From Kiritimatiellia bacterium (GTDB lineage: Bacteria > Verrucomicrobiota > Kiritimatiellia > RFP12 > UBA1067), in assembly GCA_045598785.1 (NCBI GenBank), contig JAZLMR010000068.1:1-56722 (forward strand): 56,722 nucleotides of DNA, given 5' to 3'. This document shows, in pieces, positions 223 to 34,251 of this stretch; the first letter of the stretch is position 1; each line of letters begins with the position of its first letter. Both the position numbers and the translations under genes were made by a program. A model generated the notes under the pieces. It had not been told where the DNA came from and did not search any database. It was given only the letters and a program-made list of their open reading frames with translations.

Positions 223-799
223 ATGAGCTACTCTATTAGTGATACTATGTCAACCGGTGCCGACGGTGACGACAATTGCGCTGACACGGTGGTGCACGGC
301 GCAATCCGCACGGCGGAGACCGAGAAGCCGGTTGCCGAGGCCCTTGCCATCAAGGACGGCAAGTTCGTCTACGTCGGTGACGCGGCTGGCGTGGCGGCGT
401 ACATCCAAGATGGTGTCACCAAGGTTGTCGACCACCGCGGTAAGGGCATGGTGATGCCAGGTTGCACCGATGGCCACGCGCACTATATCTTGCCCATCAC
501 CCTGGCCAACATGAAGGGTGGGGTCCTGTTCGGACATGAAGACGGCAAGGCGGAGATCCTGCGGAAGCTGGACGCGGCTGCACGTGCCGCGAAGGAGTCC
601 GGGAAGAAGAGCCTGCGTCGCCGGCATGACCTGGCACATTGGCCTTGAGGAAGGTGTGAAGGCCTTTTTGACCTTCTTTGATGAAGACTACCTCGCCGAC
701 CAGGACGTGTTTGACTGCCCAGTGACCGACATCCGCAAGACCAAGGTGGTCTCAACTTGGTTTGAGGGAAGCGAGGTCTATTCCCGCAACGCGAAGTGA
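223..799 (+). pseudogene. Decayed amidohydrolase (YtcJ/amidohydrolase_3-like) gene with large internal deletions and a frameshift
   Basis: ORF 223-648 encodes ADTVVHGAIRTAETEKPVAEALAIKDGKFVYVGD...GKGMVMPGCTDGHAHY. ORF 518-799, in another frame, encodes AGMTWH...ADQDVFDCPVTDIRKTKVVSTWFEG. These match the N-terminal, mid and C-terminal parts of the amidohydrolase module of the 28417-33312 protein (about 80 percent nucleotide identity by eye). Roughly 0.9 kb and 0.3 kb are missing. Confidence 0.75.
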
Positions 800-4076: not shown

Positions 4077-4319
4077 AACTCGGAATGCCTGCGCCGCTGC
4101 GGCATCATCGACGGCAAGGGCAAGGTTCTCATCGGCAAGATCGACGGTGGCGTTCTCGAACTCGACGGGAAGGGCTGCCCGACCGGATTCGTCGACGAGC
4201 GCGTCACGGGGTATCTGACGCGCATGGGCGGAATCGACGCGGACGAGATTGTCGACGACAAGCTGGCGGAGACCTATGAGGTGGAGCCCTGGCAGAAGGA
4301 CATCGGCAGGCAGATCTAA
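4077..4319 (+). pseudogene. Second amidohydrolase fragment (middle part of the module)
   Basis: It encodes ECLRRCGIIDGKGKVLIGKIDGGVLELDGKGCPTGFVDERVTGYLTRMGGIDADEIVDDKLAE then TYEVEPWQ. These match the 28417-33312 protein at about nt 31547-31745 and 31886-31930, which is a part missing from the fragment at 223-799. Confidence 0.7.
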
Positions 4320-6208: not shown

Positions 6209-6229
6209 GTCGGGAAGAGGAGGATACAG

Positions 6230-13658: not shown

Positions 13659-13688
13659 CAGGGCCAAGTGCAAGTGAAAGGAAAGACT

Positions 13689-16628
13689 ATGATCAGGCGA
13701 ATGACATTGTGGGCGGTGGCGCTCGTGGCGACGACGCTGGTGGCGCGCGAACCGAATTACGACGAGTCCAAGATCGCTCCCTACACGCTGGAAGATCCGC
13801 TGACTTTTGTCAATGGGAAGAAGGTGACCAATTGGGACGAGTGGAAGGCGCGGCGGGCGGAAATCGTCCGGATTTTCGAAAAGGAGATGTTCGGGCGCAC
13901 GCCGCCGAAGCCGGAAGCGGTGGTGGCCGAGCTTCTGGAAGAGGGGCCGACGCTCAAGGGCCTGGCCATCCGCCGTCAGTATCGCGTGTGGTACAAGCGC
14001 GACAAGACCGGGCCGCATCTGGACTGGCTGGTCATTCTCCCCAACCGCATCAAGGGCATCGAGCCGAAAGTGGAGAACGGCCGCGTCGTCTGCGAGAACG
14101 AGACCAAGGTGCCGGTCATCCTGTTCCTCAACTACCGCGGCAATCAGCATGTCGTCACCGACCCCGAGGTGTTCAAGTGCACGGGCTGGAGCCGCAACGA
14201 CAAGCCGCATGTGGTCGATCACGTGATTCAGGAGTCCAGCCGCGGCGAGCTGCGTCGGTGCGATTCGACGACGCCGTTTCCGATTGAGACGATTATTGCC
14301 CGCGGCTATGCGGTCATGACCGCCTGCTACTGCGACATTTCGCCCGACGTCGAGGTGCGCAAGGGCGATCCGGAGGAGCTTGCCTACACCGGTGTCTTCG
14401 AGCTGTGGCCGCGCGATCCGAACGCCGACGACAACATTACCGCGATCGGCGCCTGGGCGTGGTCGCTGTCGCGGGGCCTGGATCTTGCCGAGCAGATTCC
14501 CGAGATCGATTCGACCCGGTCGGTCGCCACCGGCTGCTCGCGGCTCGCGAAGACGCCGCTCCTGGCGGCCTCCCGCGACGAGCGTTTTGCGGTTTGCGTC
14601 CCGTGTCAGACCGGCGGCGGCGGCGCGCCGCTCGCCAAGCGCGACTTCGGCGAGAATGTTTCGACCGAGATGCGGGCGTTTCCGCATTGGTATTGCAAGG
14701 CCTATGCCAAATACATTGACAACGAGCAGGCGATGAAGTTCGACCAGCACCTGCTGCTGGCGTCGATCGCCCCGCGCGGGCTGCTGGTGCAGGGCTTCCC
14801 CTCGAATTGGTTCGACACCAAGGGCGAATATCTCGCCTGCGTCGCGGCTTCGCCGGTCTGGGAGCTTCGGGATTCCTTCCGGGGCTTGCCCAAGACGGGC
14901 TTCCCGGCGGAATACTCGACGGCGGCGATCGGCGATCGGCTCGGGTATGTCCGGCGCGGCGGCGAACACGGCATTTCCGGCAGCGACTGGCTGTGGACGA
15001 TGGACTTCGCCGATCAGATCTTCAAGGAGCGGCCGGTGATGAGCATCAAGGGCTTCACGCAGACGGTGAAGATGCTGGAGGGCGAACAGTGGTGGGGCGT
15101 GGCGAATTATTTCGCCAAGGAAATGCCGTTTACCGCCCAAAGCAAGTGCATCATTGACCTGACGGTCAACGGCTACGCCAACCAGTATGCGTCGCTGCTG
15201 ATTTCCGATCGGGGCCGCGAGATCTGGTGCGACCGCCAGTGCCGCTTTGAAATTGCCGATGGCGAAATCAAGGTGATTTCCTCCTCGGGCGCGCCGGTCG
15301 AGGTCGTCGAAGCGGGAAAGAATCTCCGCGAGGCGTTTCTCCATGCGTCGAAGCATCACTTCCCGCCGAGCGGCAAGACGCCCGACCTGGCGTTCATCCG
15401 TTCGCCGCAGTACAACACCTGGATCGAGCTGACCTATAATCAGAACGAGAAGGACATCCTGGCCTATGCGCAGTCGATGCTGGACAACGGGCTGCCGCCC
15501 GGGGTCTTTATGATCGACAACACCTGGCAGCAGAATTACGGCACCTGGGAGTTCGAGTCTTCGCGCTTCAAGGATCCGAAGGGCATGGTCGAAAAGCTCC
15601 ATCAGCAGGGCTTTAAGGTGATGCTCTGGGTGTGCCCGTGGATTTCGATGGATACCGAACCTTACCGGCAGCTTTATACCGGCAAGACCTGGGAAGGCAA
15701 GAAGGTGCCGATCGGCGGCTTCCTCAATCTTGCGCCGGCCGGGCTCGGCGAGCGTGGCGATCCCGCGGCGGTGCAGTGGTGGAACGGCAAGTCGGCCCTG
15801 CTGGACTTCACCCACCCCAATGCCAATCGCTGGTTCACGGAACAGCTCGACCGGTTGGTGAAGGACTATGGCGTCGACGGCTTCAAGCTGGACGGCGGGT
15901 CGCTCCTCTATTACACCCGCGGCTATCATTGCTTCGACAAGTCGGTGCCGAGCGGCGATCAGGCCAACGGCTACCTTAAGTATGCGCTCAAGTATCCGGT
16001 CTGCGAATATCGCCACGCCTGGAAGAACGGCGGGCAGCCGATCGTGATGCGCCTTCACGACAAGAACCACAAGTGGAGCGAAGTCCAGGCGCTCATTCCG
16101 GCGATGATCGCGGGCGGATTGCTCGGCCATTCCTTCATGTGCCCGGACATGGTCGGCGGCGGCAACTGGGTGACTTTCCTGCCGGGGCAGCCGTTTGAAG
16201 AGGAAATGTTCGTCCGCTCGGCGCAGGTGCATGCGCTGTGCGGGCAGATGCAGTTCTCGGCTTCGCCGTGGCGCGTGCTTTCCAAGGCAAACCAGCAGAT
16301 CATCCGCGACCTGGTGAAGATGCGCCAGGAGAAGTTCGCCGAGAAGTTCGTCGCGCTCGCCCGGGAGTGCGGGCATACCGGCGAGCCGATGATCCGCAAC
16401 CTCGAATACATGTTCCCCGGCTGCGGCTACGGTAGCATTCAGGACGAGTTCATGATGGGCGACTTCCTTTTGGTGGCGCCGCAGGTTGAAAAGGGCAAGG
16501 CTACGCGCGAGGTGGTCATTCCGGCCGGCAACTGGAAGGCCGATGACGGTTCGCTCGTCAAGGGACCGTGCAAGCTCGTGGTCAAGACGCCGCTTTCGCG
16601 GTTGCCGTACTTTGAGAAGCAGCCGTGA
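13689..16628 (+). CDS. Fusion protein: carbohydrate esterase family 15 (glucuronoyl esterase-like) + glycoside hydrolase family 31-like TIM barrel
   Basis: The N-terminal half carries the CE15 nucleophile motif TGCSRLAKT and QTGGGGAP. The C-terminal half carries FMIDNTWQ, KVMLWVCPWIS, GVDGFKLDGG and SFMCPDMVGGG, typical of GH31. It is one uninterrupted frame. The start was chosen at the ATG after the SD-like AAAGGAAAG. Confidence 0.72.
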   Translation: MIRRMTLWAVALVATTLVAREPNYDESKIAPYTLEDPLTFVNGKKVTNWDEWKARRAEIVRIFEKEMFGRTPPKPEAVVAELLEEGPTLKGLAIRRQYRVWYKRDKTGPHLDWLVILPNRIKGIEPKVENGRVVCENETKVPVILFLNYRGNQHVVTDPEVFKCTGWSRNDKPHVVDHVIQESSRGELRRCDSTTPFPIETIIARGYAVMTACYCDISPDVEVRKGDPEELAYTGVFELWPRDPNADDNITAIGAWAWSLSRGLDLAEQIPEIDSTRSVATGCSRLAKTPLLAASRDERFAVCVPCQTGGGGAPLAKRDFGENVSTEMRAFPHWYCKAYAKYIDNEQAMKFDQHLLLASIAPRGLLVQGFPSNWFDTKGEYLACVAASPVWELRDSFRGLPKTGFPAEYSTAAIGDRLGYVRRGGEHGISGSDWLWTMDFADQIFKERPVMSIKGFTQTVKMLEGEQWWGVANYFAKEMPFTAQSKCIIDLTVNGYANQYASLLISDRGREIWCDRQCRFEIADGEIKVISSSGAPVEVVEAGKNLREAFLHASKHHFPPSGKTPDLAFIRSPQYNTWIELTYNQNEKDILAYAQSMLDNGLPPGVFMIDNTWQQNYGTWEFESSRFKDPKGMVEKLHQQGFKVMLWVCPWISMDTEPYRQLYTGKTWEGKKVPIGGFLNLAPAGLGERGDPAAVQWWNGKSALLDFTHPNANRWFTEQLDRLVKDYGVDGFKLDGGSLLYYTRGYHCFDKSVPSGDQANGYLKYALKYPVCEYRHAWKNGGQPIVMRLHDKNHKWSEVQALIPAMIAGGLLGHSFMCPDMVGGGNWVTFLPGQPFEEEMFVRSAQVHALCGQMQFSASPWRVLSKANQQIIRDLVKMRQEKFAEKFVALARECGHTGEPMIRNLEYMFPGCGYGSIQDEFMMGDFLLVAPQVEKGKATREVVIPAGNWKADDGSLVKGPCKLVVKTPLSRLPYFEKQP

Positions 16629-22234: not shown

Positions 22235-24124
22235 ATGAAAAAGACCAATGAATTCAAGGCTGAGATCGCCGAAATGCTCGATCTCGTCGTCAACTCGCTT
22301 TATTCAAAAAAGGAAATTTTTCTTCGCGAGCTCATCTCCAACGCTTCCGACGCCATCGACCGGGCCAAGTTCCTGGGCCTGACCGACAAGGCGATCGTCG
22401 CCGACAATCCCGAATGGAAGATCGAGATTGCCGTCGACAAGACCGCCAAGACGATGATGGTCGCCGACAACGGCTCCGGCATGGACGCGGGCGAACTGGA
22501 GCAGAATCTCGGCACCATCGCCTCGTCCGGCACCAAGAAGTTCCGGGAAATGCTCAAGGAAAAGGGCGGCGAGTCGCTGCCGGAGCTGATCGGTCAGTTC
22601 GGCGTCGGCTTCTATGCGGCGTTCATGGTGGCCGACAAGGTTCGCGTCGTCACCAAGAGGCGCGGCACCGACCAGGCGTATCAGTGGGAAAGCGACATGT
22701 CGGGCTCGTACACGATCGAGGATGCCGAGCGCGACGGCTACGGCACTTCGATCATGCTGCATTTCCGCGATGACCAGGCGGAGTATCTTGACCAGTGGCG
22801 CGTTTCGGAGCTGGTGCGGAAGTATTCCGACTTCATCGCCTATCCGATAACCTTCCGGCAGCTCGACCTTCCCAAGGACGAAAAGGAAGAGGACCGCAAG
22901 CGTCGCGAGGAAAACGAGGCGAAGCCGCTCAACACCCGGGTGGCGCTCTGGAAGCGGGCCAAGAAGGACGTCAAGGACGAGGAGTACGCCGAGTTCTACA
23001 AGCATCTGACCCACGACTGGGAAGGGCCGTTTGAGACGATTCCGTTCGCCGGCGAGGGGCAGGTGGAGTTCAAGGCGCTGCTGTTCCTGCCCAAGAAGGC
23101 GACGATGGAGCTCTTCATGCCCAATCAGAAGCGCGGGCTGTCGCTCTATGTCCGCAACGTCTTCATCGGCGACGACATCGAGATGCTGCTGCCGAGCTGG
23201 CTTCGGTTCGTGAAGGGCGTGGTCGACAGCTCCGACCTGCCGCTCAACGTCTCGCGGGAGATGCTGCAGGACGACGCTATCATCGCCAAGATCAAGACGG
23301 CCGTCACCAAGAAGGTGCTTTCGACGCTGGAAGACCTCAAGAAGAAGGATCCGAAGCGCTACGATGAGTTCTATGCCGCGTTCGGCACCGTGCTCAAGGA
23401 GGGCGTGCATGTCGATTGGGAGCATGCCGACCGCATCAAGAAGCTGATCAAGTATCCGACCGCCCGGGGCGAAGCCGGCCAGCTGATGTTCCTGGAGGAC
23501 TATGTCAAGGACATGGCCGCCGACCAGAAGGACATCTATTATTTCGTCTGCGAACGCGAAGCCGACGCCCGCAAGGCGCCGCAGCTGGAGGCGGCCCGCC
23601 GTCACGGGTGCGACGTGCTGCTGTTCTGCGATCCGGTTGACGAGTATCTCACCGAGTCGCTGCGCGAGTTCGACGGCAAGAAGTTCGTCGATGTCGCCAA
23701 GGGCGAGGTGCAGTTCGGCTCCGAAGCCGAGCAGAAAGCGGAGAAGGAGTCGCTGGACAAGACTGCCGCCGAGCTGAAGCCGTTCTTGGACGCGGTCAAG
23801 CAGCAGCTGGAGGCGCAGGTGGCCGAAGTGCGGCTTTCGTCGCGGCTTACGGATTCGCCTTGCTGTCTGGTGGCGAAGGAGAACTCCCTGCCGCCGTCGA
23901 TGGTACGGATGATGCGCGCGATGAAGCAGGAGGTGCCGGACGAGAAGCGCGTTCTCGAGCTTAACGCCGCGCATCCGCTCATCGCCAAGGTCCGGGGGCT
24001 GGAAGGCGACGCACTCAAAGACGCAGTTTCGCTCCTTTATGACGCGGCGCTCATCGCCGAAGGTTCGCCGGTGGCGGACGGCGCGCGCTTTACGAAACTC
24101 CTGGCGGAGCTAATGCTCAAGTGA
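22235..24124 (+). CDS. htpG: Molecular chaperone HtpG (Hsp90)
   Basis: FLRELISNASDAIDR, GQFGVGFYAAF, 629 aa, colinear with HtpG throughout. Confidence 0.95.
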   Translation: MKKTNEFKAEIAEMLDLVVNSLYSKKEIFLRELISNASDAIDRAKFLGLTDKAIVADNPEWKIEIAVDKTAKTMMVADNGSGMDAGELEQNLGTIASSGTKKFREMLKEKGGESLPELIGQFGVGFYAAFMVADKVRVVTKRRGTDQAYQWESDMSGSYTIEDAERDGYGTSIMLHFRDDQAEYLDQWRVSELVRKYSDFIAYPITFRQLDLPKDEKEEDRKRREENEAKPLNTRVALWKRAKKDVKDEEYAEFYKHLTHDWEGPFETIPFAGEGQVEFKALLFLPKKATMELFMPNQKRGLSLYVRNVFIGDDIEMLLPSWLRFVKGVVDSSDLPLNVSREMLQDDAIIAKIKTAVTKKVLSTLEDLKKKDPKRYDEFYAAFGTVLKEGVHVDWEHADRIKKLIKYPTARGEAGQLMFLEDYVKDMAADQKDIYYFVCEREADARKAPQLEAARRHGCDVLLFCDPVDEYLTESLREFDGKKFVDVAKGEVQFGSEAEQKAEKESLDKTAAELKPFLDAVKQQLEAQVAEVRLSSRLTDSPCCLVAKENSLPPSMVRMMRAMKQEVPDEKRVLELNAAHPLIAKVRGLEGDALKDAVSLLYDAALIAEGSPVADGARFTKLLAELMLK

Positions 24125-24942
24125 TCGTCGACGTCCATTCTCATGACTTCGCCCGTTCGATTGCCGTGCGGGCGATGTCGGGAATGTGTCGAATGACCGA
24201 GGGCGTGCTGTGGTCGACTGGCGACGGCACGCTCGCCAATCATCTGGATCAGATCGAACGCGCCGGCGTTGACTGCGCCGTCACCTGCCCGATCGCCACC
24301 AAACCCGGGCACTGGCGAATCATCTTCGACCGGGCCCGCCGCATCCTTCGCGGCGAATGCGGCGACCGGGCCCGTGCGCGGATCGTGCCGTTCGCCTCGG
24401 TGCATCCGGACGATCCCGAACTGGAGGCGCACCTCCGGGTCATTGCCGAGGGCGGCATCCGCGGGGTCAAGTTCCATCCGTATTATCAGGACTTCGCCTT
24501 GACGGAAGCGCGTTCGCGGCGGATGTTCGACATCGTTGCCGATCTCGGGCTGGTGGTGCAGTGCCATGCCGGCGGCGACATCTGCTGGCGGGAGTCGACC
24601 GGGCGTTGCGGTCCGCGGGAGATTGAGTCGTTGGTCAAGCGATGCCGGCGGCTTAAGTTCATCGCCGCGCATTTGGGCGGGTGCTTCCGGCAGCCGGCGC
24701 ACGAAGCCGACCGGCTGATGGACTGCGGTGTCTACACGGACACGTCGGTTCTGCATGCGCGGTGGCACTACGACGAGGAGATGCGGCTCTTGAGGTCCTG
24801 GCCGCGGGAATTGATCATGTTCGGCACCGATTTTCCCTGGACGCATTATCCCGAGGCGATTCGCTGGGTCAAGTCCGTGCGCGAGCAGCGGGATTGGGAG
24901 GATCTGTTCGGAGGCAATGCATGTCGGTTGCTGGGCCTTTGA
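24121..24942 (+). CDS. Metal-dependent amidohydrolase (amidohydrolase_2/TIM-barrel hydrolase family)
   Basis: N-terminal IVDVHSHD metal-binding motif, FHPYYQDF, AAHLGG. The GTG start overlaps the htpG stop codon. Confidence 0.65.
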   Translation: MIVDVHSHDFARSIAVRAMSGMCRMTEGVLWSTGDGTLANHLDQIERAGVDCAVTCPIATKPGHWRIIFDRARRILRGECGDRARARIVPFASVHPDDPELEAHLRVIAEGGIRGVKFHPYYQDFALTEARSRRMFDIVADLGLVVQCHAGGDICWRESTGRCGPREIESLVKRCRRLKFIAAHLGGCFRQPAHEADRLMDCGVYTDTSVLHARWHYDEEMRLLRSWPRELIMFGTDFPWTHYPEAIRWVKSVREQRDWEDLFGGNACRLLGL

Positions 24943-26054
24943 CCAAGGACGCGATTCGCGATCGAATGCGCACATTGCGGCGGGCGGTGAAGCCGGCTCG
25001 GCGCGAGCTGGTGTCGCGGCAATTGTGCGAGCGGCTGTTGCTGAAGACTCTTGGCGCGAAACGGGTGTGCTGCTATCGCGCGCTTAAGACCGAAATCGAC
25101 TTGGCGGAATTCATCGCCCGCTCGCCGGCGGAAATCGTCTTTCCCGAAAAGGTCGGCGATGGCTATCAGGTCGAAAGCCCGGAGACGGTCGACGTCTGGA
25201 TCTGCCCGGGGCTGGCGTTCACTCGTGCCGGCGATCGCGTGGGGTTTGGCGGTGGCTGGTACGACCGCTTTCTGGCGGCGGCTAAGCCGACTGCCCGCAA
25301 GTTGGGCGTTGCGTATCGCTTTCAGCTCGTGGACGAGTTGCCGTGCGCGGCGCACGACATACGGCTGGACGAGATGGTCGTGGAAGGGGTTTCGCTGGAC
25401 TATGAGCGCGGTGAGGGGCCGCTGGTGATGGGCATTGACGAGGCGGGGCGCGGTCCGCTCGTCGGCGGCGTTTATGCGGCGGCGGTATCGGTGCCGCTTG
25501 ATCGCGCCGCCGAACTGGCCGCGAACGAATGGCGGGCGATCAACGATTCTAAGCAGCTGTCGGAGAAGAAGCGCTTTCAGCTCGCGGAAGTCATCAAAGC
25601 TACGGCCGGATGCACTTGGGCGATCGCTTCGGCGAGCCCGCAGGAAATTGACGCGCTCAACATCCTCAAGGCGACGCATTTGGCGATGCGACGGGCGGCG
25701 GAGTCGCTGGCGGGCCAGTTGGCGGCGGGGACTGTCCCCATGGCGGCGGGGACTGTCCCCAAGATTCTAGTGGATGGGCTGGCGGTGCCGACTTTGCCGT
25801 ATCCGGCGAAAAATGTGATCAAGGGCGATGCGCAGTCGCTGTTCATCGCGGCCGCGTCCATCTTGGCGAAAACGGCCCGTGACGAAGATTGCTTTCGTTT
25901 GGAACGCGAATATCCGGGTTATGGCTTTGCCAAGCATAAGGGCTATCCGACGCCCGAGCATCTGGCCGCCTTGGCCAAATTGGGGCCTTGTCCCGAGCAT
26001 CGGCGGAGTTTTGGCCCGGTAAGTCAGCCGGAATTCAAATGGACAGGAGCCTAG
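24921..26054 (+). CDS. rnhB: Fusion protein: 5-formyltetrahydrofolate cyclo-ligase (N-terminal ~165 aa) + ribonuclease HII
   Basis: 5-FCL motif GLAFTRAGDRVGFGGGWYDRFL. The same frame then continues into MGIDEAGRGPLVGGV, DSKQLS, KGDA...AAASILAK and HRRSFGPV of RNase HII. There is no stop codon between the modules. Confidence 0.8.
   Translation: MSVAGPLTKDAIRDRMRTLRRAVKPARRELVSRQLCERLLLKTLGAKRVCCYRALKTEIDLAEFIARSPAEIVFPEKVGDGYQVESPETVDVWICPGLAFTRAGDRVGFGGGWYDRFLAAAKPTARKLGVAYRFQLVDELPCAAHDIRLDEMVVEGVSLDYERGEGPLVMGIDEAGRGPLVGGVYAAAVSVPLDRAAELAANEWRAINDSKQLSEKKRFQLAEVIKATAGCTWAIASASPQEIDALNILKATHLAMRRAAESLAGQLAAGTVPMAAGTVPKILVDGLAVPTLPYPAKNVIKGDAQSLFIAAASILAKTARDEDCFRLEREYPGYGFAKHKGYPTPEHLAALAKLGPCPEHRRSFGPVSQPEFKWTGA
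25720..25761 (+). repeat. Perfect 21-bp tandem duplication (TGGCGGCGGGGACTGTCCCCA x2) containing two palindromic cores, inside rnhB
   Basis: Read directly. It encodes AAGTVPM AAGTVPK in a loop that is about 12-14 aa shorter in E. coli RNase HII (between the ...AVAGL helix and the VLIDG strand). Confidence 0.95.
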
Positions 26055-28385: not shown

Positions 28386-28394
28386 TGATATAAT
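28386..28394 (+). promoter_or_regulatory. Extended -10 promoter element TGATATAAT for the giant gene
   Basis: TGnTATAAT, then the SD sequence AAGGAG (28403-28408) and ATG 28417. Confidence 0.6.
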
Positions 28395-28416
28395 GTGACG
28401 ACAAGGAGAAGTTGAG

Positions 28417-31400
28417 ATGAAGCAACTGATGACGGCAGTGGCGGGTATGGTGTTGGCGCTTGGTGCCTTTTCGGCGTTTGCCGGGGAGCCTGGTCCGCGT
28501 CTTGTGCCGGACTACGACCGCAACGGGGTGATCGACGAGGCCGATTGTATACGGGCTGCCGCGAACGAGCCGTTCACCATCTGGCTCAATGACGACGATG
28601 ATGCCGCAGGCGCGGAAGTGGACGAAGGCAAGGGAGATGTCAACACCGACCTGCATGACGTTCCCGGAGGGAATGATGAGAAGGACTGCGAGGACGACAA
28701 GGTCAACGGACGCTGCGACCTCCTTGATTTCTTCCCCGTGCTCGTGGATGTGACTGGTGTGGACGATTGGGCGAATTACACCTGGAAGCTGAGTTCGGAG
28801 TCCGTTAACGTCGTATTCACCAGGTTGAATCCGAATTTTGCGGGCGACTTTCACACGAAGACCGTTCAGGGCTGGGATGTCGAGTCGCCGCTTTATCAGG
28901 CAGCGGTCTCGAAGCTTGCGAATGGTGATGTCGTACTGCCAGATGGTTTTTTCACATGCGAGAACCACTATGGCAGGGGAGTTCTTTTGGTCGAAGGCGC
29001 CGCGTTTGCGAACGCCGGCGGCATCACGCTTCGCGGCGAGAAGGAGTCCGGCGACCACGTCGAGGTGACGCTGGACCTTCGTGTCAAGAATGTGGAGGAC
29101 ATGTACGGGTGGATGAATTTGAGGGATCAGGGATCAGAAGGGGATCGGTTAGCGCCACGACGCGAGGACGCGTCGGGTACGATGTTGGACAACCGGCACT
29201 TTGTGCTTGTTCACGGTTACAACACGAACCACGAGGAGGCGAGGGGCAACGCCGCGGAGTTCTACAAGAAACTCTGGCAGTCCGGCTCGGACGCGATGTT
29301 CACCGCGGTCGAGTGGAACGGCAACCAGTCGCAGATTAAGTTCGATGAACTTGGCGTCAACTTCACGCCGAACTACTTTGTGAACGTCGCGAACGCCTTG
29401 GCGGCGGCGAAGCCGTTCGCGGAAGCGTGCAAACGGCTGTCGGGCGAGAAGATCCTCGTCGGGCACTCCCTCGGCAACGTGCTGATTTCGTCCGCCATCA
29501 AGGATCATGGCCTCGACTACACGAAGTTCGTAATGCTCAACGCGGAGATCGCTGGGAAGGATTTTGCTGCGGACGGGCGCTTCGCCAAGCTGCCGCGGAC
29601 GATCAACTGCTATTCGCCCTCCGATTCGTTTTTGGAGGAATCCGAATTTGATGTCGAGCATTGCGACGACAGCCGTGAGTTTCTCGCCGCTTTTTGTCAA
29701 GAAGCCGGATTTTGGTCGCTGAACGCGAAGATCAAGACGAGCGGGAAGGCGGTGGGCTGGGTCAATGAGTTCATCATCAACCGCCTTGAGCTGGCCGAGG
29801 CAGAAGCGATTACGCCCGAACAACTCGCGTACGCCGGCGTGATCGAGATGCCCGCTGCGGGCGCGAATCCGGTCGCGACGCTGGAGAACGTGAATATGGA
29901 GGACTTCATTGGCGAGAATTGGCCGGTTGTCGAGGAGGGAACGGGGAATGGAGAACAGGGAATAGCGGATCGGGAGAAGGAGTGGCAGCACTCGACTTTT
30001 AGGGAGGTCGCGTTCTACCACACCTCGAAGTTTTACGCTTCGCTGGCCGCGGTCGGCAAGCCGCGCGTCATCATCGACACGGACCTCGGCTCAAGCATAG
30101 ACGACCTCTTCACGATTGATCTTGCGGCGCGGATGCACAAGGCGGGCAAGCTCGACCTGATGGCGGTGATGATGGACCGTCCTGACGGGAGCAATGCATC
30201 CGACGATCCGCACGGGAGGGGCGAGTTCCTGAAGTTCGCCGACCGCTACCTCGCTTCGCTTGGACTTGGAGACCTGCCGATCGGGGTGTCGACGCCACTG
30301 ACAGAAGATCGCCTGCCACAGCATGTGTTCAATCCCTATTGGACGCTCATCTACTCGAACAACCTGACGAGTGTCGGTCTGATGCTGCCGACGAATCGCA
30401 CGGACGAGCAGATTGGCGCCCTTACGAACGCGGTCGTTCTCTACCGGCGGCTCCTCGAGGACGCGCAGCCTAAGTCGGTCGTCATCTGCTCGCTCGGCTT
30501 CCTCAACAACCTGAAGGCGTTGATGGAGTCGGGCCTGAATTACGGGGACGATGGCATTCAGTCCACGGGCAAGGAACTCATCGCGGCGAAGGTGAAGGAG
30601 TTGCGCATCATGGCCGGATGCTTCGATCCGTCCACCGCGCCGGACGGCAAGGATGGCGCCGAATATAACGCGGCAGGTGATCCTGCGGGAACGAAGAAGG
30701 TCTTCGAGGAATGGCCGACGCCGGTTGTCGTCAGCACATGGGAGGTGGGACTGAATCTGTGGTACGATCCGAAGGACGTCCTGGCAGACTTCCCGCCCGG
30801 CACGCTAGATCCGGTTGTTCGCGCCGTCTACACGTATTGGCCTGATCGGGCGGCGGACGGCATCAACCGTCTCTGGGACGTGATGACGGTGCTGCCGCTT
30901 TTTGAGGGCGAGGCGCTGGCGCCGTTGTCGGAGATGGGCGGAATTTCGGTGGATGAGAAGGGCGTGACGACATTCACGCCCGATCCGTCCAGCAACCGCT
31001 GCTACCAGGTCGCGTCGAGCATGGACGCGACGGCGGTGATGGAGCGGATTCGGACGCTCTGCCGGACGGGCAATCCGTCGGCAGACACGGTGGTGTACGG
31101 GACGATCCGCACCGCCGAGACGGGGAATCCGGTCGCCGAGGCCATCGCCGTCAAGGACGGCAGGTACGTCTACGTCGGCGACGAGGCCGGTGCGGCGGCG
31201 TTCATTGAGGACGGCGTCACCAAGGTCGTCGACCACCGCGGCAAGGGTATGGTGATGCCCGGTTGCACCGACGGACATTCGCACTACACGATGCTTTTCG
31301 GTCTCGTCCACATGAAGGGTGGCGTCAAGTTCGAGTACACAGACGACAAGGCGATGGTCCTGCAAAAACTGAAGGCGGCTTCGCAGGCGGCGAAAGATGC

Positions 31401-33312
31401 TGGGAAGCAGACCCTCTTTTCCATTGGTTGGAACTACTACACCTTCCGGATGGGCGAAGGACTGACCTTGGAGGAGCTGGACGCGGCTACGCTCGGGGTG
31501 TCTGCGGTTCTCTTCGATTCTAACGGTCACAGCGCTTACTGCAATACGGAATGTCTGAAGCGCTGCGGCATCATCGACGGCGCGGGAAACGTGCTGATCA
31601 CGAAGATTGACGGCGGTCTTCTGGAACTGGACGGCAACGGATACCCCACCGGATTCGTGCAAGAGCGCGTCTCGGGGTATCTGACGCGTATGGGTGGAAT
31701 CATCGCGGACGAGAACATCGATGACAAGGTGGCGGAATCCGTCGTGCGTGAGTCCCAGGAGCTTTTGCTGTCCACGGGTTATACTATCGCGCTGGAAGGA
31801 TGGAGCAACCAGTTGCATCCAAGCAAGTTCTATGAAGCCGCGCATCGGTTGGACACCAATGGGGAGTTTAAGATCGTATTCCCCATGACCTACGAAGTGG
31901 AGCCGTGGCAGACGAACATGACCAGCGAGATCGACCATCTCGCCTCGCTTAAGGAGACGTACGGGACGCGACACGTGCTGCCGAGCTATCTGAAGATCTT
32001 TATGGACGGCTGCGTGGAAACCAAGACCGGCGCGATGGTTGATCCATACCAGGACACGGATCACACCGTTTACAAGAGTTTCTGGGCCACGAACCGCCTC
32101 GCGGACATCACCAGGGCGTGCAACGCCAAGGGACTGACCGTACACACCCACACCATGGGCGATGCCGCCATCCGGGATGTGACTGACGCCTATATCCAGG
32201 GCGGCGACGGCACGCATCGCAATTGCCTGGTGCATCTCCGCAACGTGCGTCCGGAAGATTTCCAGCGTTTCGCCGAGAACAACATCGCCTGCACCGCCGG
32301 TATGACCTGGCATGTGATCAACGGGGGAGGGTCTGATGAACATATGGTGGGTTTCCTGGATGAGAAATATATCAAGCACGCCTACCCGATGAAGTCCTTC
32401 TTCGACGCCGGTGTCAAGGTCTCCAGTCATACGGACTTCCCGGCAAACGGCGGCTGTCCGCAGGATCCGTTCGGGATCATGCAAGTCGCCGTCACCGGAT
32501 TGATTCCAAACCCTCCGGATGGCATGACGCCGTTCGACACGGACGAGCTGATCACGCGCGAGCAGGCGTTCCAGGCGCTGACGCTGAACGGAGCGTGGCA
32601 GATGGGCCTCGAAAACGAGCGCGGCAGCATCAAGGTCGGCAAGTGGGCGGACTTCGTGCTCGCCGACCAGGACGTGTTCGAATGCGAGACGTCCGACATC
32701 GGCAAGACCAAGGTCGTCTCCACCTGGTTTGAGGGGGAGAAGGTCTTTGAGGCGTCTGAGTCGGTGTCGGTCAAGCCGGGTGAGCAGATTGTTCGCGACA
32801 CGGCCGAGGAGGCGTCGAACGTCATGAAGCGGGCCGTGTTCACCCCGAGCGCAAAGGTCGCGGAGGAGTTGGGTGGCGAAGGGTCGACGGTGTTGCAAAC
32901 ATATTGCAATATGTTCACGCTGGACGTCGTGCCGACCTCGGACGGCAAATGGGCGGTTGCGGCGTTTCTCTTGCCGCCGGACTGGACGAACGTCGTCAAG
33001 TCGGCTCAGGCGGCGACGTTGCAGATTCCGGTGGCGGAGCTTGCGGCGTATCCGTATGGCGAACCGCTGAAAAACGTGCCGCTCACGAACTGCGTGCCGG
33101 GCTTCTACTATTCGCTTTATGACGGGACGGCCGTGACGAACCTCAAGGCGGATCTCAACTCGGACAACTGCAATCTTCTCTGCGGTCCGGGTGCGACGGT
33201 GACGATCCCCGTGGTGCCGCATAACCCTGCGTCGGGCTTCTACTCCATCGGGGTGCTTGAGGCCCCGGTAGTCGTCCCCGGCAAAACCGAAACCGCCACA
33301 ATGGCGGAGTAG
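28417..33312 (+). CDS. 1631-aa secreted multi-enzyme fusion. Approximate modules: signal peptide (aa 1-23); Ca-binding PAD_M-like domain (aa 30-240); DUF900/lipase-like alpha/beta hydrolase (aa 259-420); nucleoside hydrolase (IUNH)-like domain (aa 549-880); amidohydrolase_3 (YtcJ-like) (aa 890-1444); unknown C-terminal ~185 aa
   Basis: Signal peptide MKQLMTAVAGMVLALGAFSAFA. WLNDDDD...DCEDDKVNGRCDLLDFFPV resembles the PAD4 middle-domain stretch VNCDRD...DCEDDEVLDSEDLQDM. FVLVHGYNTNHEEA plus VGHSLGN give a serine hydrolase nucleophile elbow. VIIDTDLGSSIDD is an IUNH-type Asp cluster with a 2-residue longer spacer. MPGCTDGHSHY...AGMTWH...SSHTDFP...VVSTWFEG is amidohydrolase_3. By eye, the third codon positions are less GC-rich than in the neighbouring genes. 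Confidence 0.75.
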   Translation: MKQLMTAVAGMVLALGAFSAFAGEPGPRLVPDYDRNGVIDEADCIRAAANEPFTIWLNDDDDAAGAEVDEGKGDVNTDLHDVPGGNDEKDCEDDKVNGRCDLLDFFPVLVDVTGVDDWANYTWKLSSESVNVVFTRLNPNFAGDFHTKTVQGWDVESPLYQAAVSKLANGDVVLPDGFFTCENHYGRGVLLVEGAAFANAGGITLRGEKESGDHVEVTLDLRVKNVEDMYGWMNLRDQGSEGDRLAPRREDASGTMLDNRHFVLVHGYNTNHEEARGNAAEFYKKLWQSGSDAMFTAVEWNGNQSQIKFDELGVNFTPNYFVNVANALAAAKPFAEACKRLSGEKILVGHSLGNVLISSAIKDHGLDYTKFVMLNAEIAGKDFAADGRFAKLPRTINCYSPSDSFLEESEFDVEHCDDSREFLAAFCQEAGFWSLNAKIKTSGKAVGWVNEFIINRLELAEAEAITPEQLAYAGVIEMPAAGANPVATLENVNMEDFIGENWPVVEEGTGNGEQGIADREKEWQHSTFREVAFYHTSKFYASLAAVGKPRVIIDTDLGSSIDDLFTIDLAARMHKAGKLDLMAVMMDRPDGSNASDDPHGRGEFLKFADRYLASLGLGDLPIGVSTPLTEDRLPQHVFNPYWTLIYSNNLTSVGLMLPTNRTDEQIGALTNAVVLYRRLLEDAQPKSVVICSLGFLNNLKALMESGLNYGDDGIQSTGKELIAAKVKELRIMAGCFDPSTAPDGKDGAEYNAAGDPAGTKKVFEEWPTPVVVSTWEVGLNLWYDPKDVLADFPPGTLDPVVRAVYTYWPDRAADGINRLWDVMTVLPLFEGEALAPLSEMGGISVDEKGVTTFTPDPSSNRCYQVASSMDATAVMERIRTLCRTGNPSADTVVYGTIRTAETGNPVAEAIAVKDGRYVYVGDEAGAAAFIEDGVTKVVDHRGKGMVMPGCTDGHSHYTMLFGLVHMKGGVKFEYTDDKAMVLQKLKAASQAAKDAGKQTLFSIGWNYYTFRMGEGLTLEELDAATLGVSAVLFDSNGHSAYCNTECLKRCGIIDGAGNVLITKIDGGLLELDGNGYPTGFVQERVSGYLTRMGGIIADENIDDKVAESVVRESQELLLSTGYTIALEGWSNQLHPSKFYEAAHRLDTNGEFKIVFPMTYEVEPWQTNMTSEIDHLASLKETYGTRHVLPSYLKIFMDGCVETKTGAMVDPYQDTDHTVYKSFWATNRLADITRACNAKGLTVHTHTMGDAAIRDVTDAYIQGGDGTHRNCLVHLRNVRPEDFQRFAENNIACTAGMTWHVINGGGSDEHMVGFLDEKYIKHAYPMKSFFDAGVKVSSHTDFPANGGCPQDPFGIMQVAVTGLIPNPPDGMTPFDTDELITREQAFQALTLNGAWQMGLENERGSIKVGKWADFVLADQDVFECETSDIGKTKVVSTWFEGEKVFEASESVSVKPGEQIVRDTAEEASNVMKRAVFTPSAKVAEELGGEGSTVLQTYCNMFTLDVVPTSDGKWAVAAFLLPPDWTNVVKSAQAATLQIPVAELAAYPYGEPLKNVPLTNCVPGFYYSLYDGTAVTNLKADLNSDNCNLLCGPGATVTIPVVPHNPASGFYSIGVLEAPVVVPGKTETATMAE

Positions 33313-33324: not shown

Positions 33325-34251
33325 ATGAAAACCGGCGGCAGTAAGAATGCGCCCGTTATGGCCGTTCGCGAAGATCCAATCGTCTATGTCGACGGAGTGG
33401 AGCGCCGAACCATTGACCTTAGGCCGTACGGGGTCGATGCCATTCCGCTGGTTGGCATCAGCAACTACCGCATGGTTCGGGGCGGCACCGAATACCATGT
33501 TCATCCCGGCTGCGTCGAGGTGTGCCTGTGTCTGCGCGGCAATTTGCGCTTTGAGGCCGACGGCCAGCAATATCCGTTCCTGCCGGGGCGCGTATTCGTC
33601 TCCAACTGCAATGAGCCGCATCGGATGCGCTCGAATCCCAAGGGACTCGCGCTTTATCGGCTGCTCTTTGCCTTGCCGTCGCCCGGCAAGGCGGTTCTGG
33701 GGCTTACGCTGGCCGAAACCCAGTGGCTGGTCCGTTCGTTGACGCATTTTCCCGTGCGGCTTTTCCCCGCTTCGCCGCGGGTGAAGAGCGGCTTCGCTCA
33801 GGTGCTGTCCATCTATGACGAGAAGCCCAAGGGCGTGGACGGCCGGTTGCGTCTGCGGACTTCGGTGATCGAGCTTTTGCTGGCGATCATCGAGTCGCCG
33901 CAGCTGCCGCCGGAGCAGGACGTGCGCCCTCAGCCCAAGGTCCGGGAAATCGTGGCGCGGATGCAGGCGAGCCCGGAGCGAGAGTATCCGGTTGAGTCGC
34001 TGGCGGCCGAGGCGGCGTTGTCGACGGTGGCGTTCAACGAGGCGTTCAAGCGCGCCACGGGCTTGCCGCCGCATGCCTTCCTGCTTGGTTGTCGGCTTGA
34101 AAATTCGCGGCAGGAGCTGGAGCGGGGCAAGGTCTCGGTCGCGACGGTGGCCCTGAAGTTCGGCTTTTGTTCGGCGCGGCATTTTTCCACGGCCTTCAAG
34201 CGCATGTTCGGCGTTTGTCCGAGCAAAGTTGCGGGCGAAGGTGTGGTATAA
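33325..34251 (+). CDS. AraC-family transcriptional regulator (cupin sensor + HTH)
   Basis: N-terminal cupin-like domain (YHVHPGCVEV). The C-terminal part has the two AraC HTH units ...VALKFGFCSARHFSTAFKRMFGVCPS. Confidence 0.8.
   Translation: MKTGGSKNAPVMAVREDPIVYVDGVERRTIDLRPYGVDAIPLVGISNYRMVRGGTEYHVHPGCVEVCLCLRGNLRFEADGQQYPFLPGRVFVSNCNEPHRMRSNPKGLALYRLLFALPSPGKAVLGLTLAETQWLVRSLTHFPVRLFPASPRVKSGFAQVLSIYDEKPKGVDGRLRLRTSVIELLLAIIESPQLPPEQDVRPQPKVREIVARMQASPEREYPVESLAAEAALSTVAFNEAFKRATGLPPHAFLLGCRLENSRQELERGKVSVATVALKFGFCSARHFSTAFKRMFGVCPSKVAGEGVV

What the first reader, a model, noticed from the sequence alone, without database searches (positions are those of the whole stretch)
28417..33312. 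1631-aa secreted protein fusing four unrelated enzyme-type modules (PAD_M-like / DUF900 alpha-beta hydrolase / nucleoside-hydrolase-like / amidohydrolase_3)
A single uninterrupted frame with its own TGATATAAT promoter, AAGGAG SD sequence and signal peptide strings the modules together. They are: an acidic Ca-binding-like region (DCEDDKVNGRCDLLDFFPV, echoing the PAD4 middle-domain stretch DCEDDEVLDSEDLQDM); a serine hydrolase with HGYNTNHEEA and GHSLGN; an IUNH-like domain whose Asp cluster (DTDLGSSIDD) has a non-canonical spacing; a complete YtcJ-type amidohydrolase; and a ~185-aa tail with no recognisable motif. I know of no characterised protein with this architecture. The gene looks less GC-rich at third positions than its neighbours and is followed by an AraC regulator. 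It could be an extracellular multi-step degradative enzyme or a polymorphic-toxin-like effector.
Basis: partly seen in the sequence, partly recalled or inferred. Interest (0 to 1): 0.65.

Follow-up and report, generated by a model that had tools for sequence, protein, structure and literature searches.

The report
Shuffled multi-enzyme secreted protein, gut Kiritimatiellia
This is a real 1631-residue exported protein from a herbivore-gut Kiritimatiellia bacterium that strings three hydrolase modules between a calcium-binding domain resembling the front end of arginine deiminases and a lineage-specific C-terminal domain; it belongs to an uncharacterised family that swaps such modules freely, so it is interesting but not unique.

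Summary
Window 28417-33312 is one uninterrupted 1631-aa frame with an extended -10 promoter, a Shine-Dalgarno site and a Sec-type signal peptide.

It has five modules:
- an N-terminal acidic domain whose AlphaFold model matches only PAD3/PAD4 N-terminal domains (Foldseek E about 3e-6), although no HMM detects this;
- an alpha/beta serine hydrolase, DUF900/DUF676-like, below the Pfam cut-offs in this protein;
- a secreted-type IUNH-like domain, just above the Pfam cut-off;
- a YtcJ-type Amidohydro_3 domain with all metal ligands intact;
- a roughly 180-aa C-terminal domain with no Pfam match and no PDB fold match.

The architecture is not unique. About 20 close Kiritimatiellia proteins recombine these modules with other enzymes, and about 100 more carry the PAD-like domain plus hydrolase as one unit at their C-terminus. 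The amidohydrolase also occurs at 60-71% identity as a lipoprotein in Bacteroidales and as an SLH-anchored protein in Firmicutes. It is often next to, or fused with, a CBAH amidase and a carboxylesterase.

Best reading: a cell-surface, multi-activity hydrolase built by domain shuffling. A polymorphic toxin is not supported. The claimed GC3 anomaly is not real. Substrates are unknown.

The parts
28386..28394 (+). Extended -10 promoter element TGATATAAT
   Evidence: Read directly. TGNTATAAT occurs 11 times in the window, all on the + strand, against 0.13 expected, mostly about 17-34 nt upstream of ORF starts. The simple two-hexamer scan found no -35/-10 pair here.
28403..28408 (+). Shine-Dalgarno AAGGAG, 8 nt before the ATG
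   Evidence: Read directly.
28417..33312 (+). Coding sequence, 1631 aa plus stop codon
   Evidence: Colinear homologues come from independent assemblies.
28417..28482 (+). Sec-type signal peptide, residues 1-22, with cleavage inferred after AFA
   Evidence: Sequence. Close relatives start the same way. No signal-peptide predictor was available, so this is an inference.
28486..29136 (+). Acidic, probably Ca-binding, Ig-like domain pair resembling the PAD N-terminal and middle domains (residues 24-240)
   Evidence: AF2 model with pLDDT 88.5. The top 13 Foldseek PDB hits are all PAD3/PAD4: E 2.7e-6 to 6.9e-5, 182-228 aligned columns, TMq 0.37-0.47. D32, W56, N58, D60, D62, D101, D104, F105, P107 and E193 are each conserved in at least 97% of the 118 aligned sequences. 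HMM searches were negative.
29194..30060 (+). Alpha/beta serine hydrolase (residues 260-548): HG oxyanion motif 266-267, S351 in GHSLGN, D403, H525
   Evidence: Pfam DUF676 and DUF900 score below cut-off here, but DUF900 and Abhydrolase_6 match 12 of 18 relatives. S351 is conserved in 98% of 118 sequences, position 403 is always D or E, and H525 is invariant. This protein alone has A437 where the other 117 have E, and T441 where 115 have G. Its clade lacks two inserts, and its closest relatives P0002 and P0012 carry GHGLGN.
30061..31080 (+). IUNH-like (nucleoside-hydrolase fold) domain, residues 549-888: D554, D556, D562, D563, N751, D755, D821
   Evidence: Pfam PF01156 scores 34.8 bits against a cut-off of 34.2. 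There are 91 homologues, including stand-alone secreted forms, HAD fusions and annotated nucleoside hydrolases. The DTDxxxxxDD motif and the EYN and WD residues are conserved across the subfamily.
31081..32760 (+). YtcJ-type Amidohydro_3 metallo-amidohydrolase, residues 889-1448: H954, H956, K1193, H1245, H1273, D1340
   Evidence: Pfam E 2.8e-49. PDB 3icj matches at E 5e-15 with the ligand motifs aligned. All six ligands are invariant in 21 sequences. The module begins exactly where the stand-alone lipoproteins begin after their signal peptide, at ADTVVYGTIRTAE.
32761..33309 (+). Lineage-specific C-terminal domain, residues 1449-1631, ending ...SGFYSIGV plus a short tail
   Evidence: It appears in 106 representative clusters. 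In 86 of 97 scored hits it ends within 20 residues of the C-terminus, on cargoes of 200-2800 aa that carry diverse domains. The AF2 model has pLDDT 94.1 and no PDB fold match (best E 0.25). No Pfam or NCBIfam hit.
33325..34251 (+). AraC-family regulator (cupin sensor plus HTH_18), probably co-transcribed
   Evidence: The gap is 13 nt with no terminator-like site on the + strand and no TGNTATAAT before it. The next such motif is at 34244, before queA. The pairing is not conserved in relatives.

Best explanation
The gene encodes an exported, probably cell-surface-retained, multi-activity hydrolase of a plant-fibre-fermenting Kiritimatiellia bacterium from a herbivore (mostly equine) hindgut.

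Shown:
- It is one polypeptide with its own promoter.
- It consists of five modules whose boundaries coincide with the ends of stand-alone proteins found elsewhere.
- The amidohydrolase has a complete binuclear-metal ligand set.
- The IUNH-like domain keeps the acidic and Asn residues conserved throughout its secreted subfamily.
- The serine hydrolase keeps a Ser-Asp-His triad.
- The same modules are recombined in many relatives.

Inferred:
1. The protein is exported through Sec, and its signal peptide is cleaved after A22.
2. The PAD-like N-terminal domain binds Ca2+ through its invariant Asp/Asn cluster. It acts as a structural or regulatory partner of the serine hydrolase, with which it always travels as one unit.
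3. The three catalytic modules act largely independently outside the cytoplasm, on ester, N-glycosidic (ribosyl-type) and amide bonds of small gut-derived compounds.
4. The conserved C-terminal domain is this lineage's device for sorting or surface retention. It would play the role that a lipoprotein anchor plays for the same amidohydrolase in Bacteroidales, and that SLH domains play in Firmicutes.
5. The adjacent AraC regulator is co-transcribed and may sense a product or inducer.

The substrates are not known. The amidohydrolase recurs next to, or fused with, a CBAH-type linear-amide hydrolase and a type-B carboxylesterase. That points to amide- and ester-linked compounds rather than polysaccharides.
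For: - ORF, promoter, ribosome-binding site.
- Module map and recombination. A (residues 27-545) moves as a unit; B (551-890), C (889-1448) and D (1445-1628) occur in different combinations.
- Module A sits at the C-terminus of about 100 proteins with TSP3 repeats.
- Each module has extracytoplasmic stand-alone versions. IUNH-like proteins carry signal or lipoprotein leaders. The amidohydrolase occurs as lipoproteins of 578-593 aa whose GC content matches the host contig (0.31-0.58) in Bacteroidales, Bacilli and Clostridia. It also occurs as SLH or Cu_amine_oxidN1 fusions.
- Catalytic residues.
- PAD-like fold.
- The C-terminal domain is found on unrelated cargoes (FGE-sulfatase, BspA-type LRR, AP_endonuc_2, thioredoxin-like, IUNH, Amidohydro_3), almost always at the very end.
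- Rosetta-stone links. AH3|CBAH|COesterase are adjacent genes in Alistipes equi. AH3-CBAH fusions of about 935 aa are common. In Kiritimatiellia and Lentisphaeria loci, COesterase-AH3 lies in one ORF (L006, L018); CBAH-AH3 (L007, L008) and COesterase-CBAH-AH3 (L009, a 3392-aa ORF) are adjacent on the same strand within long ORFs.
- Genomic setting. Housekeeping genes flank it, with pectin and hemicellulose enzymes and an FeFe hydrogenase nearby.
- Taxonomy. The closest relatives come from Kiritimatiellia MAGs, and many hits are named after horses.
Against: - No activity, localisation or expression data exist for this protein. Public runs hold only related fragments at 90-99% identity, and their depth drops to zero in the flanks.
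- The serine hydrolase may be impaired. This protein is the only one of 118 with Ala at the otherwise invariant E437. Its clade has lost two inserts and several near-invariant residues. Its two closest relatives have lost the nucleophile Ser.
- The IUNH assignment is marginal by Pfam, and the Asp-cluster spacing is non-canonical.
- The sorting or anchoring role of the C-terminal domain rests only on position, on cargo diversity and on analogy. It has no similarity to any known sorting domain.
- Ca2+ binding by the N-terminal domain is inferred from fold and acidic residues only. TM-scores to PADs are moderate, 0.37-0.47.
Confidence: 0.6

Rival explanations
1. A dedicated multi-step enzyme. The three catalytic modules act in sequence on one compound that contains ester, N-ribosyl and amide bonds, and they were fused to channel intermediates.
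For: All three catalytic-type modules sit on one chain in the same order in P0002, P0003 and P0004. Fusions and operons linking the amidohydrolase with other small-molecule hydrolases recur across phyla. A co-transcribed AraC-type sensor suggests a defined inducer.
Against: Relatives omit the IUNH module (P0005, P0006), omit the amidohydrolase (P0008, P0012) or replace it with CBAH, AP_endonuc_2 or arylsulfotransferase modules. Two close relatives have lost the hydrolase nucleophile. The partners that recur with the amidohydrolase in other phyla are CBAH and COesterase, not IUNH.
Confidence: 0.15
2. Mainly a Ca-dependent surface scaffold or adhesin in which some enzyme folds are binding modules or pseudoenzymes. 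The alpha/beta hydrolase of this clade in particular would be inactive.
For: Module A is the C-terminal part of about 100 giant proteins rich in TSP3 repeats, Flg_new and LRR-type domains. In the window protein's clade the hydrolase lost two inserts. E437 and G441 are replaced here, and S351 is Gly in P0002 and P0012. Yet the core (residues 260-380) stays 85-86% identical between the window protein and P0002 or P0012, which suggests selection for something other than catalysis.
Against: The window protein itself keeps Ser351, Asp403, His525 and the HG motif. The amidohydrolase ligands are invariant. The IUNH acidic cluster is conserved.
Confidence: 0.15
3. A polymorphic-toxin-like effector: conserved delivery modules carrying exchangeable toxic enzyme domains aimed at competitors or host cells.
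For: The family combines a conserved N-terminal unit with variable downstream domains. Serine lipase-type domains are used as effectors in other systems (general knowledge, not tested here).
Against: The extreme C-terminus is conserved rather than variable. The variable modules belong to catabolic families and have stand-alone lipoprotein orthologues in gut commensals. No candidate immunity gene and no conserved neighbour was found at the six loci examined. Pfam found no RHS, T5SS, T6SS or T7SS-type delivery domain.
Confidence: 0.05
4. An assembly or gene-calling artefact that joins separate genes.
For: The window appears to be a metagenomic contig. Modules exist as separate genes in other organisms.
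Against: The same colinear junctions occur in independently assembled contigs from other samples: P0002/L001 over 1430 residues, P0003 and P0004. The frame is uninterrupted, and GC3 is similar across modules, 0.69-0.81.
Confidence: 0.02

Closest known systems
Peptidylarginine deiminases PAD3/PAD4 (N-terminal PAD_N plus PAD_M domains; PDB 7dan, 7d56, 8smk, 2dey)
   Same: The predicted fold of residues 24-240 matches these N-terminal Ig-like domains and, at E<=1e-4, nothing else in the PDB. It is rich in invariant Asp/Asn in WLNDDDD and DLLDFFPV motifs. From general knowledge, these recall the PAD Ca3-Ca5 region. Like PAD_M, it sits directly in front of a catalytic domain.
   Different: No PAD_C deiminase domain is present; the partner is an alpha/beta serine hydrolase. 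No PAD_N or PAD_M profile match was found. Sequence identity in the structural alignments is 12-16% and TM-scores are 0.37-0.47. Published surveys describe PAD_N and PAD_M only together with PAD_C (PMC8826395).
YtcJ-like Amidohydro_3 metal-dependent hydrolases (PF07969; PDB 3icj, 3igh, both uncharacterised)
   Same: Full-length profile match, E 2.8e-49. The HxH, Lys, His, His and Asp ligand motifs align with 3icj and are invariant in the subfamily.
   Different: It is embedded in a 1631-aa fusion rather than being a protein of about 550 aa. It belongs to a gut-specific extracellular subfamily at 60-72% identity across Kiritimatiellia, Bacteroidales, Firmicutes and Lentisphaeria. No NCBIfam equivalog matches. 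The substrate is unknown.
Inosine-uridine preferring nucleoside hydrolases (IUNH, PF01156)
   Same: It passes the Pfam cut-off. A graded series of homologues reaches annotated nucleoside hydrolases. The N-terminal Asp cluster, the EYN Asn and the WD Asp are conserved.
   Different: The motif is DTDxxxxxDD, not DXDXXXDD. The subfamily members aligned here begin with hydrophobic signal- or lipoprotein-type leaders. The best single-sequence PDB hit is insignificant, 5mj7 at E 0.19. Base-specificity residues cannot be assigned.
DUF900 / DUF676 / Abhydrolase_6 alpha/beta hydrolases
   Same: HG oxyanion motif, GHSLGN nucleophile elbow, an acid and a His in the canonical order. DUF900 and Abhydrolase_6 match 12 of 18 family members, with best E about 7e-7.
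   Different: The window protein is below every Pfam cut-off. A family profile finds nothing significant in the PDB. The domain is always preceded by the PAD-like domain and carries family-specific motifs (WxxQExxKG, IPAxSxAxG) that are partly lost here.
Cargo-independent C-terminal sorting or anchoring domains (T9SS CTD, SLH, PEP-CTERM)
   Same: The roughly 180-aa tail sits at the extreme C-terminus of proteins with unrelated passenger domains. It occupies the position that SLH domains occupy behind the same amidohydrolase in Firmicutes.
   Different: No sequence match to any such family and no PDB fold match. It is longer than a T9SS CTD, and no C-terminal hydrophobic segment or Arg-rich tail was seen in the sequences read. 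The role is inferred, not shown.

Membership tests
Amidohydro_3 (PF07969, YtcJ-like) | Profile match above the curated cut-off over the whole domain | tested here: met
   169.3 bits against a cut-off of 29.7, profile positions 2-472 of 472.
Amidohydro_3 (PF07969, YtcJ-like) | Binuclear metal ligands: HxH, bridging Lys, two His, Asp | tested here: met
   H954/H956, K1193, H1245, H1273 and D1340 align with the corresponding motifs of 3icj and are invariant in 21 homologues.
Amidohydro_3 (PF07969, YtcJ-like) | Amide or related C-N hydrolase activity, and the substrate | not testable with these tools
   No NCBIfam equivalog reaches its cut-off. The nearest solved structures are themselves uncharacterised.
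IUNH nucleoside hydrolase (PF01156) | Profile match above the curated cut-off | tested here: met
   34.8 bits against 34.2, profile positions 1-197 of 297 only. Homologues carry precomputed PF01156 hits.
IUNH nucleoside hydrolase (PF01156) | N-terminal DXDXXXDD Asp cluster | tested here: not met
   The sequence is D554-T-D556-LGSSI-D562-D563, two residues longer. The same spacing holds in all 26 aligned subfamily members, including annotated nucleoside hydrolases.
IUNH nucleoside hydrolase (PF01156) | Downstream Ca/ribose-binding Asn and Asp | tested here: inconclusive
   N751 (EYN) and D821 (WD) are invariant in alignment A2. Their equivalence to the canonical ligands is inferred, with no structure to support it.
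DUF900 / DUF676 alpha/beta hydrolase | Profile match above the curated cut-off | tested here: not met
   DUF676 scores 16.0-19.8 bits against 20.3; DUF900 scores 13.9 against 20.5. Twelve of 18 relatives match DUF900 at E down to 6.9e-7.
Alpha/beta serine hydrolase superfamily | Nucleophile elbow GxSxG, acid and His in order, oxyanion HG | tested here: met
   H266-G267, G349-H-S351-L-G353, D403 and H525. All are conserved in 118 sequences, with D or E at 403. The fold itself was not modelled.
Protein-arginine deiminase (PAD) | PAD_C catalytic domain | tested here: not met
   No PF03068 hit anywhere in the protein.
Protein-arginine deiminase (PAD) | PAD_N or PAD_M profile match | tested here: not met
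   No Pfam hit at E<=1. A family profile and the acidic stretch both find no PDB chain at E<=10.
Protein-arginine deiminase (PAD) | Fold of the N-terminal Ig-like domain pair | tested here: met
   The top 13 Foldseek hits are PAD3/PAD4, E 2.7e-6 to 6.9e-5, probability 1.0. The next hits are generic Ig domains at E >= 7e-4.
Polymorphic toxin system | Variable toxin domain at the extreme C-terminus | tested here: not met
   The C-terminal ~180 aa are the conserved part. The variation is internal.
Polymorphic toxin system | Adjacent cognate immunity gene | tested here: not met
   Downstream genes differ at every locus: AraC, then AAA_14/DUF4143, DHDPS, another giant protein, and an unknown gene.
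T9SS-type or other known C-terminal sorting domain | Profile or fold similarity to a known sorting domain | tested here: not met
   No Pfam or NCBIfam hit in residues 1449-1631. The best Foldseek PDB hit has E 0.25 and probability 0.09, despite a model pLDDT of 94.
T9SS-type or other known C-terminal sorting domain | Extreme C-terminal position on diverse cargo | tested here: met
   In 86 of 97 scored hits it ends within 20 residues of the C-terminus. Cargo domains are diverse.

The most novel reading that the evidence does not exclude
The PAD-like-plus-hydrolase unit and the ~180-aa C-terminal domain may define a Kiritimatiellia-specific system for displaying interchangeable enzymes on the cell surface. 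In that reading, the C-terminal domain is a new kind of sorting or anchoring signal with a fold absent from the PDB. The PAD-like domain would be a Ca2+ switch controlling a serine hydrolase. That would also make it the first PAD_N/PAD_M-type scaffold found without a deiminase, which bears on where the PAD regulatory domains came from.
Probability: 0.25. Interest if true: 0.65.

Novelty: new variant of a known kind. Interest (0 to 1): 0.45.

Why it matters
Kiritimatiellia are abundant but barely cultured members of herbivore hindguts, and their large secreted proteins are almost entirely unannotated. This gene gives a clean, compact example of three things.

1. A widespread unnamed module, a PAD-like Ca domain plus a serine hydrolase, seen here in at least 118 proteins.
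2. A confidently folded C-terminal domain with no structural relative. It is a candidate sorting or anchoring signal in a phylum whose protein export is poorly known.
3. An extracellular amidohydrolase shared at 60-72% identity across four phyla of gut bacteria and repeatedly linked to a CBAH amidase and a carboxylesterase. This suggests an unrecognised, ecologically important amide/ester substrate in the equine gut.

None of this changes a textbook picture yet. It offers well-defined constructs for biochemistry.

Tried and rejected
- PAD likeness by sequence. Pfam on the whole protein, a 32-sequence profile against PDB at E<=10 and the 87-aa acidic stretch alone all gave nothing. Only the fold search was positive.
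- Alpha/beta hydrolase profile against PDB. Only chance-level hits at E about 0.7, to NrdR, SABP2 and hydroxynitrile lyases.
- IUNH domain as a single sequence against PDB. Insignificant.
- C-terminal domain fold search. No match. Profile-profile comparison with the N-terminal domain shows they are unrelated.
- GC3 and composition as a sign of foreign origin. The gene is mid-range. Rejected.
- Public reads. The runs found hold only short contigs of relatives (90-99% identity) and nothing from the flanks. They say nothing about expression or frame integrity of this exact gene. One metatranscriptome contains family fragments.
- Conserved gene neighbourhood. None for the gene itself across six loci. 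The upstream AAA_14/DUF4143 gene seen at three loci is absent here.
- The two-hexamer sigma-70 scan found no promoter upstream. The extended -10 motif search did.
- Literature searches found nothing on this family. One search failed on syntax.
- Assembly chimera and polymorphic toxin readings were considered and rejected, as set out under the rival explanations.


Full report
**The observation**

Window 28417..33312 (+) is one ATG-to-stop frame of 1631 codons. Upstream lie TGATATAAT (28386-28394) and AAGGAG (28403-28408), the latter 8 nt before the ATG. A two-hexamer sigma-70 scan found nothing there. However, the extended -10 pattern TGNTATAAT occurs 11 times in the window, all on the + strand, against 0.13 expected from shuffles. 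Most copies with a listed ORF start nearby lie about 17-34 nt upstream of it. It is therefore the promoter type of this genome, and the gene has its own.

No such motif and no + strand terminator-like site lies in the 13 nt between the stop codon and the AraC-family gene at 33325-34251. The next motif is at 34244, before queA. AraC is therefore probably co-transcribed.

The N-terminus (MKQLMTAVAGMVLALGAFSAFA|GE) reads as a Sec signal peptide. This is by inspection only.

GC3 of the gene is 0.78.

**Organism and setting**

The neighbours are housekeeping genes: HtpG, an RNase HII fusion, a pterin-binding enzyme, a chromate transporter, QueA and a pseudouridine synthase. Further upstream are two GH28 enzymes, a GH31 fused to a CE15-like glucuronoyl esterase, a GH2 and an FeFe hydrogenase.

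The closest homologues come from Kiritimatiellia MAGs. Many related sequences come from genomes named after horses or horse faeces. The source is thus an anaerobic plant-fibre degrader from a herbivore hindgut.

**Anatomy**

BLASTP and phmmer mapping of 119 homologues onto the query gives five modules with sharp borders.

*Module A (residues about 24-548)* always moves as one unit. It follows a signal peptide in about 20 close relatives (54-71% identity). In about 100 proteins of 900-2800 aa, most with TSP3-type repeats, it forms the C-terminal ~580 residues.

- Its first half (24-240) has a set of residues conserved in at least 97% of 118 sequences: D32, W56, N58, D60, D62, D101, D104, F105, P107, E193.
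- No HMM links this half to anything.
- An AlphaFold model built from a 32-sequence alignment is confident (pLDDT 88.5). Its 13 best PDB matches are all PAD3 or PAD4: E 2.7e-6 to 6.9e-5, 182-228 aligned columns, TMq 0.37-0.47. Generic Ig domains follow only from E 7e-4.
It covers the PAD N-terminal Ig-like pair rather than PAD_M alone.
- Published surveys describe PAD_N and PAD_M only in front of the deiminase domain (PMC8826395). Here the partner is different.

*The second half of module A (260-548)* is an alpha/beta serine hydrolase.

- It has HG at 266-267, S351 in GHSLGN (nt 29467-29469), an acid at 403 (always D or E) and an invariant H525.
- In the window protein, DUF676 and DUF900 score just below their cut-offs. 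DUF900 and Abhydrolase_6 match 12 of 18 relatives.
- A family profile finds nothing significant in the PDB.
- The clade formed by the window protein, P0002 and P0012 lacks two inserts and differs at near-invariant P475, A476 and S478.
- The window protein is the only one of 118 with Ala at E437 and Thr at G441.
- P0002 and P0012 have Gly in place of the nucleophile Ser. Even so, the core (260-380) stays 85-86% identical between the window protein and each of them.
- The triad is intact here, but catalytic competence is uncertain.

*Module B (549-888)* is IUNH-like.

- Pfam scores 34.8 bits against a cut-off of 34.2.
- A dedicated search found 91 homologues: stand-alone proteins of 330-380 aa, HAD-IUNH fusions, and annotated nucleoside hydrolases. 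The stand-alone members aligned begin with signal- or lipoprotein-type leaders.
- The unusual DTDxxxxxDD spacing is shared by all 26 aligned members. N751 (EYN) and D821 (WD) are invariant.
- It is a member of a secreted IUNH subfamily whose substrate is unknown.

*Module C (889-1448)* is a complete YtcJ-type Amidohydro_3 domain.

- Pfam E is 2.8e-49, and PDB 3icj matches at E 5e-15.
- H954, H956, K1193, H1245, H1273 and D1340 are invariant in 21 sequences.
- This module occurs at 60-72% identity in other phyla. It is a lipoprotein of 578-593 aa in Bacteroidales and Bacilli, with GC content matching each host contig. It carries SLH or Cu_amine_oxidN1 domains in Firmicutes.
- Those proteins start, right after their signal peptide, with ADTVVYGTIRTAE. 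This is exactly where the module starts in the window protein.

*Module D (1449-1631)* is a conserved domain found in 106 representative clusters.

- In 86 of 97 scored hits it ends within 20 residues of the C-terminus.
- It follows unrelated cargo domains: FGE-sulfatase, BspA-type LRR, AP_endonuc_2, thioredoxin-like, IUNH and Amidohydro_3.
- Its model is very confident (pLDDT 94.1), yet it has no PDB match; the best hit has E 0.25. It has no Pfam or NCBIfam match.

**The family is combinatorial**

- P0002 is A+B+C with a different tail.
- P0003 and P0004 are A+B+linker+C+D.
- P0005 and P0006 are A+C.
- P0008 is A+B+D, and P0012 is A+B.
- P0007 and P0013 are A+B+linker+CBAH+D.
- P0010 and P0016 add an AP_endonuc_2 TIM barrel.
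- P0015 carries arylsulfotransferase domains.
- P0019 joins the first 112 residues of A directly to C.

Independent assemblies share the same junctions, so an assembly chimera is very unlikely.

**Functional links**

In Alistipes equi the stand-alone amidohydrolase is followed by a CBAH/AAT Ntn-hydrolase and a type-B carboxylesterase, with a GDSL lipase upstream.

- In other Bacteroidales, AH3 and CBAH are fused (about 935 aa) and followed by the esterase.
- In Kiritimatiellia and Lentisphaeria loci, COesterase-AH3 lies in one ORF (L006, L018). CBAH-AH3 (L007, L008) and COesterase-CBAH-AH3 (L009, a 3392-aa ORF) are adjacent on the same strand within long ORFs.

This recurring trio argues for amide- and ester-linked small substrates. 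It also shows that lineages fuse what others keep as operons.

**How it most likely works**

The best-supported picture has three steps:

1. Export through Sec.
2. Retention or sorting through the C-terminal domain. This is by analogy with the lipoprotein and SLH anchors of the same amidohydrolase in other phyla.
3. Largely independent action of an esterase-type, an N-glycosidase-type and an amidase-type module outside the cell.

The PAD-like domain would serve as a Ca-binding partner of the serine hydrolase.

What is shown: the modules, their residues, their recombination and their extracytoplasmic relatives. What is inferred: Ca binding, anchoring, the activities and the substrates.

A strict multi-step pathway is less likely because modules are dropped and swapped. 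A polymorphic toxin is unlikely for three reasons: the C-terminal tip is conserved, the variable parts are catabolic families, and no conserved partner gene exists.

A scaffold with partly dead enzymes remains a live alternative for the hydrolase module.

**Expression**

Public runs contain only short contigs of relatives (90-99% identity) over the conserved stretches, and nothing over the flanks. One metatranscriptome holds such fragments. This shows that family members are present in gut samples and perhaps transcribed. It says nothing certain about this gene.

**Verdict**

The feature is real and correctly delimited.

The architecture is uncharacterised but is one member of a shuffled family. 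It is a new variant of a known kind, the multi-domain extracellular hydrolase. Two of its parts are genuinely undescribed: the PAD-like-plus-hydrolase unit and the C-terminal domain. Interest is moderate.

Noticed in passing
window, 11 sites: 2257, 4363, 11871, 28386, 34244, 35415, 38902, 44431, 48256, 54205, 56310 (all + strand): The extended -10 motif TGNTATAAT is about 85-fold enriched (11 found, 0.13 expected). It is strictly co-oriented with the genes. Most copies with a listed ORF start nearby sit about 17-34 nt upstream of it, implying very short leaders. The same motif precedes family genes in the related loci L026 and L028.
   Followed up: partly
window 229-784 (+) and 4077-4316 (+): Remnants of a second Amidohydro_3 module of the same subfamily. 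An N-terminal piece (equivalent to residues 889-1000, 69% identity) runs into a frame-shifted C-terminal piece (about 1381-1444), with stop codons around. A separate middle piece (1043-1108, 77% identity) lies 3.3 kb away. This looks like a broken paralogue.
   Followed up: partly
window 2283-3632 (+); L027 2067-3350 and 9325-10620; L028 4079-5296; L029 4189-5463: An AAA_14/DUF4143 ATPase gene lies between the amidohydrolase remnants in the window. Such a gene also sits directly upstream (41-48 nt, same strand) of family members P0003, P0012 and P0013, and a second one sits downstream of P0003. This may be chance in genomes rich in these genes, or a link to the rearrangements that shuffle the family.
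   Followed up: partly
window 13668-16628 (+): Another fusion enzyme in the same genome: a CE15-like glucuronoyl esterase domain joined to a GH31 glycosidase (986 aa). It is flanked by two GH28 enzymes and a GH2, forming a pectin/hemicellulose cluster.
   Followed up: no
window 4397-7948 (+): An NADH-dependent FeFe hydrogenase pair: a flavoprotein-type subunit and the large catalytic subunit. This is consistent with a fermentative anaerobe.
   Followed up: no
L012 9944-14510; L014 4820-9368; L024 9953-14437; L009 5951-16129: The trio of amidohydrolase, CBAH/AAT Ntn-hydrolase and type-B carboxylesterase recurs in different forms. It appears as adjacent genes and as two-domain fusions in Bacteroidales. 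In Kiritimatiellia all three lie within one 3392-aa ORF.
   Followed up: partly
relatives P0007, P0010, P0013 (CBAH modules inside 2000-2400-aa proteins): Ntn-hydrolases of the CBAH family normally need a free N-terminal Cys. Internal CBAH modules in these giants (for example ...GGCSSVRVGNFHGRN...) would require self-cleavage. That cleavage would cut the fusion into an N-terminal fragment and a CBAH-plus-tail fragment.
   Followed up: no
P0127-P0141 (about 540 aa): The secreted IUNH-like subfamily also occurs fused to a HAD-type phosphatase domain, at 54-61% identity to the window module. This hints at phosphorylated ribosyl substrates for some members.
   Followed up: no
window 24681-26054 (+): The longest ORF here joins the C-terminal part of a 5-formyltetrahydrofolate cyclo-ligase domain to RNase HII, and it overlaps the preceding Amidohydro_2 ORF (24121-24942). 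It is probably two genes with a mis-chosen start rather than a true fusion.
   Followed up: no
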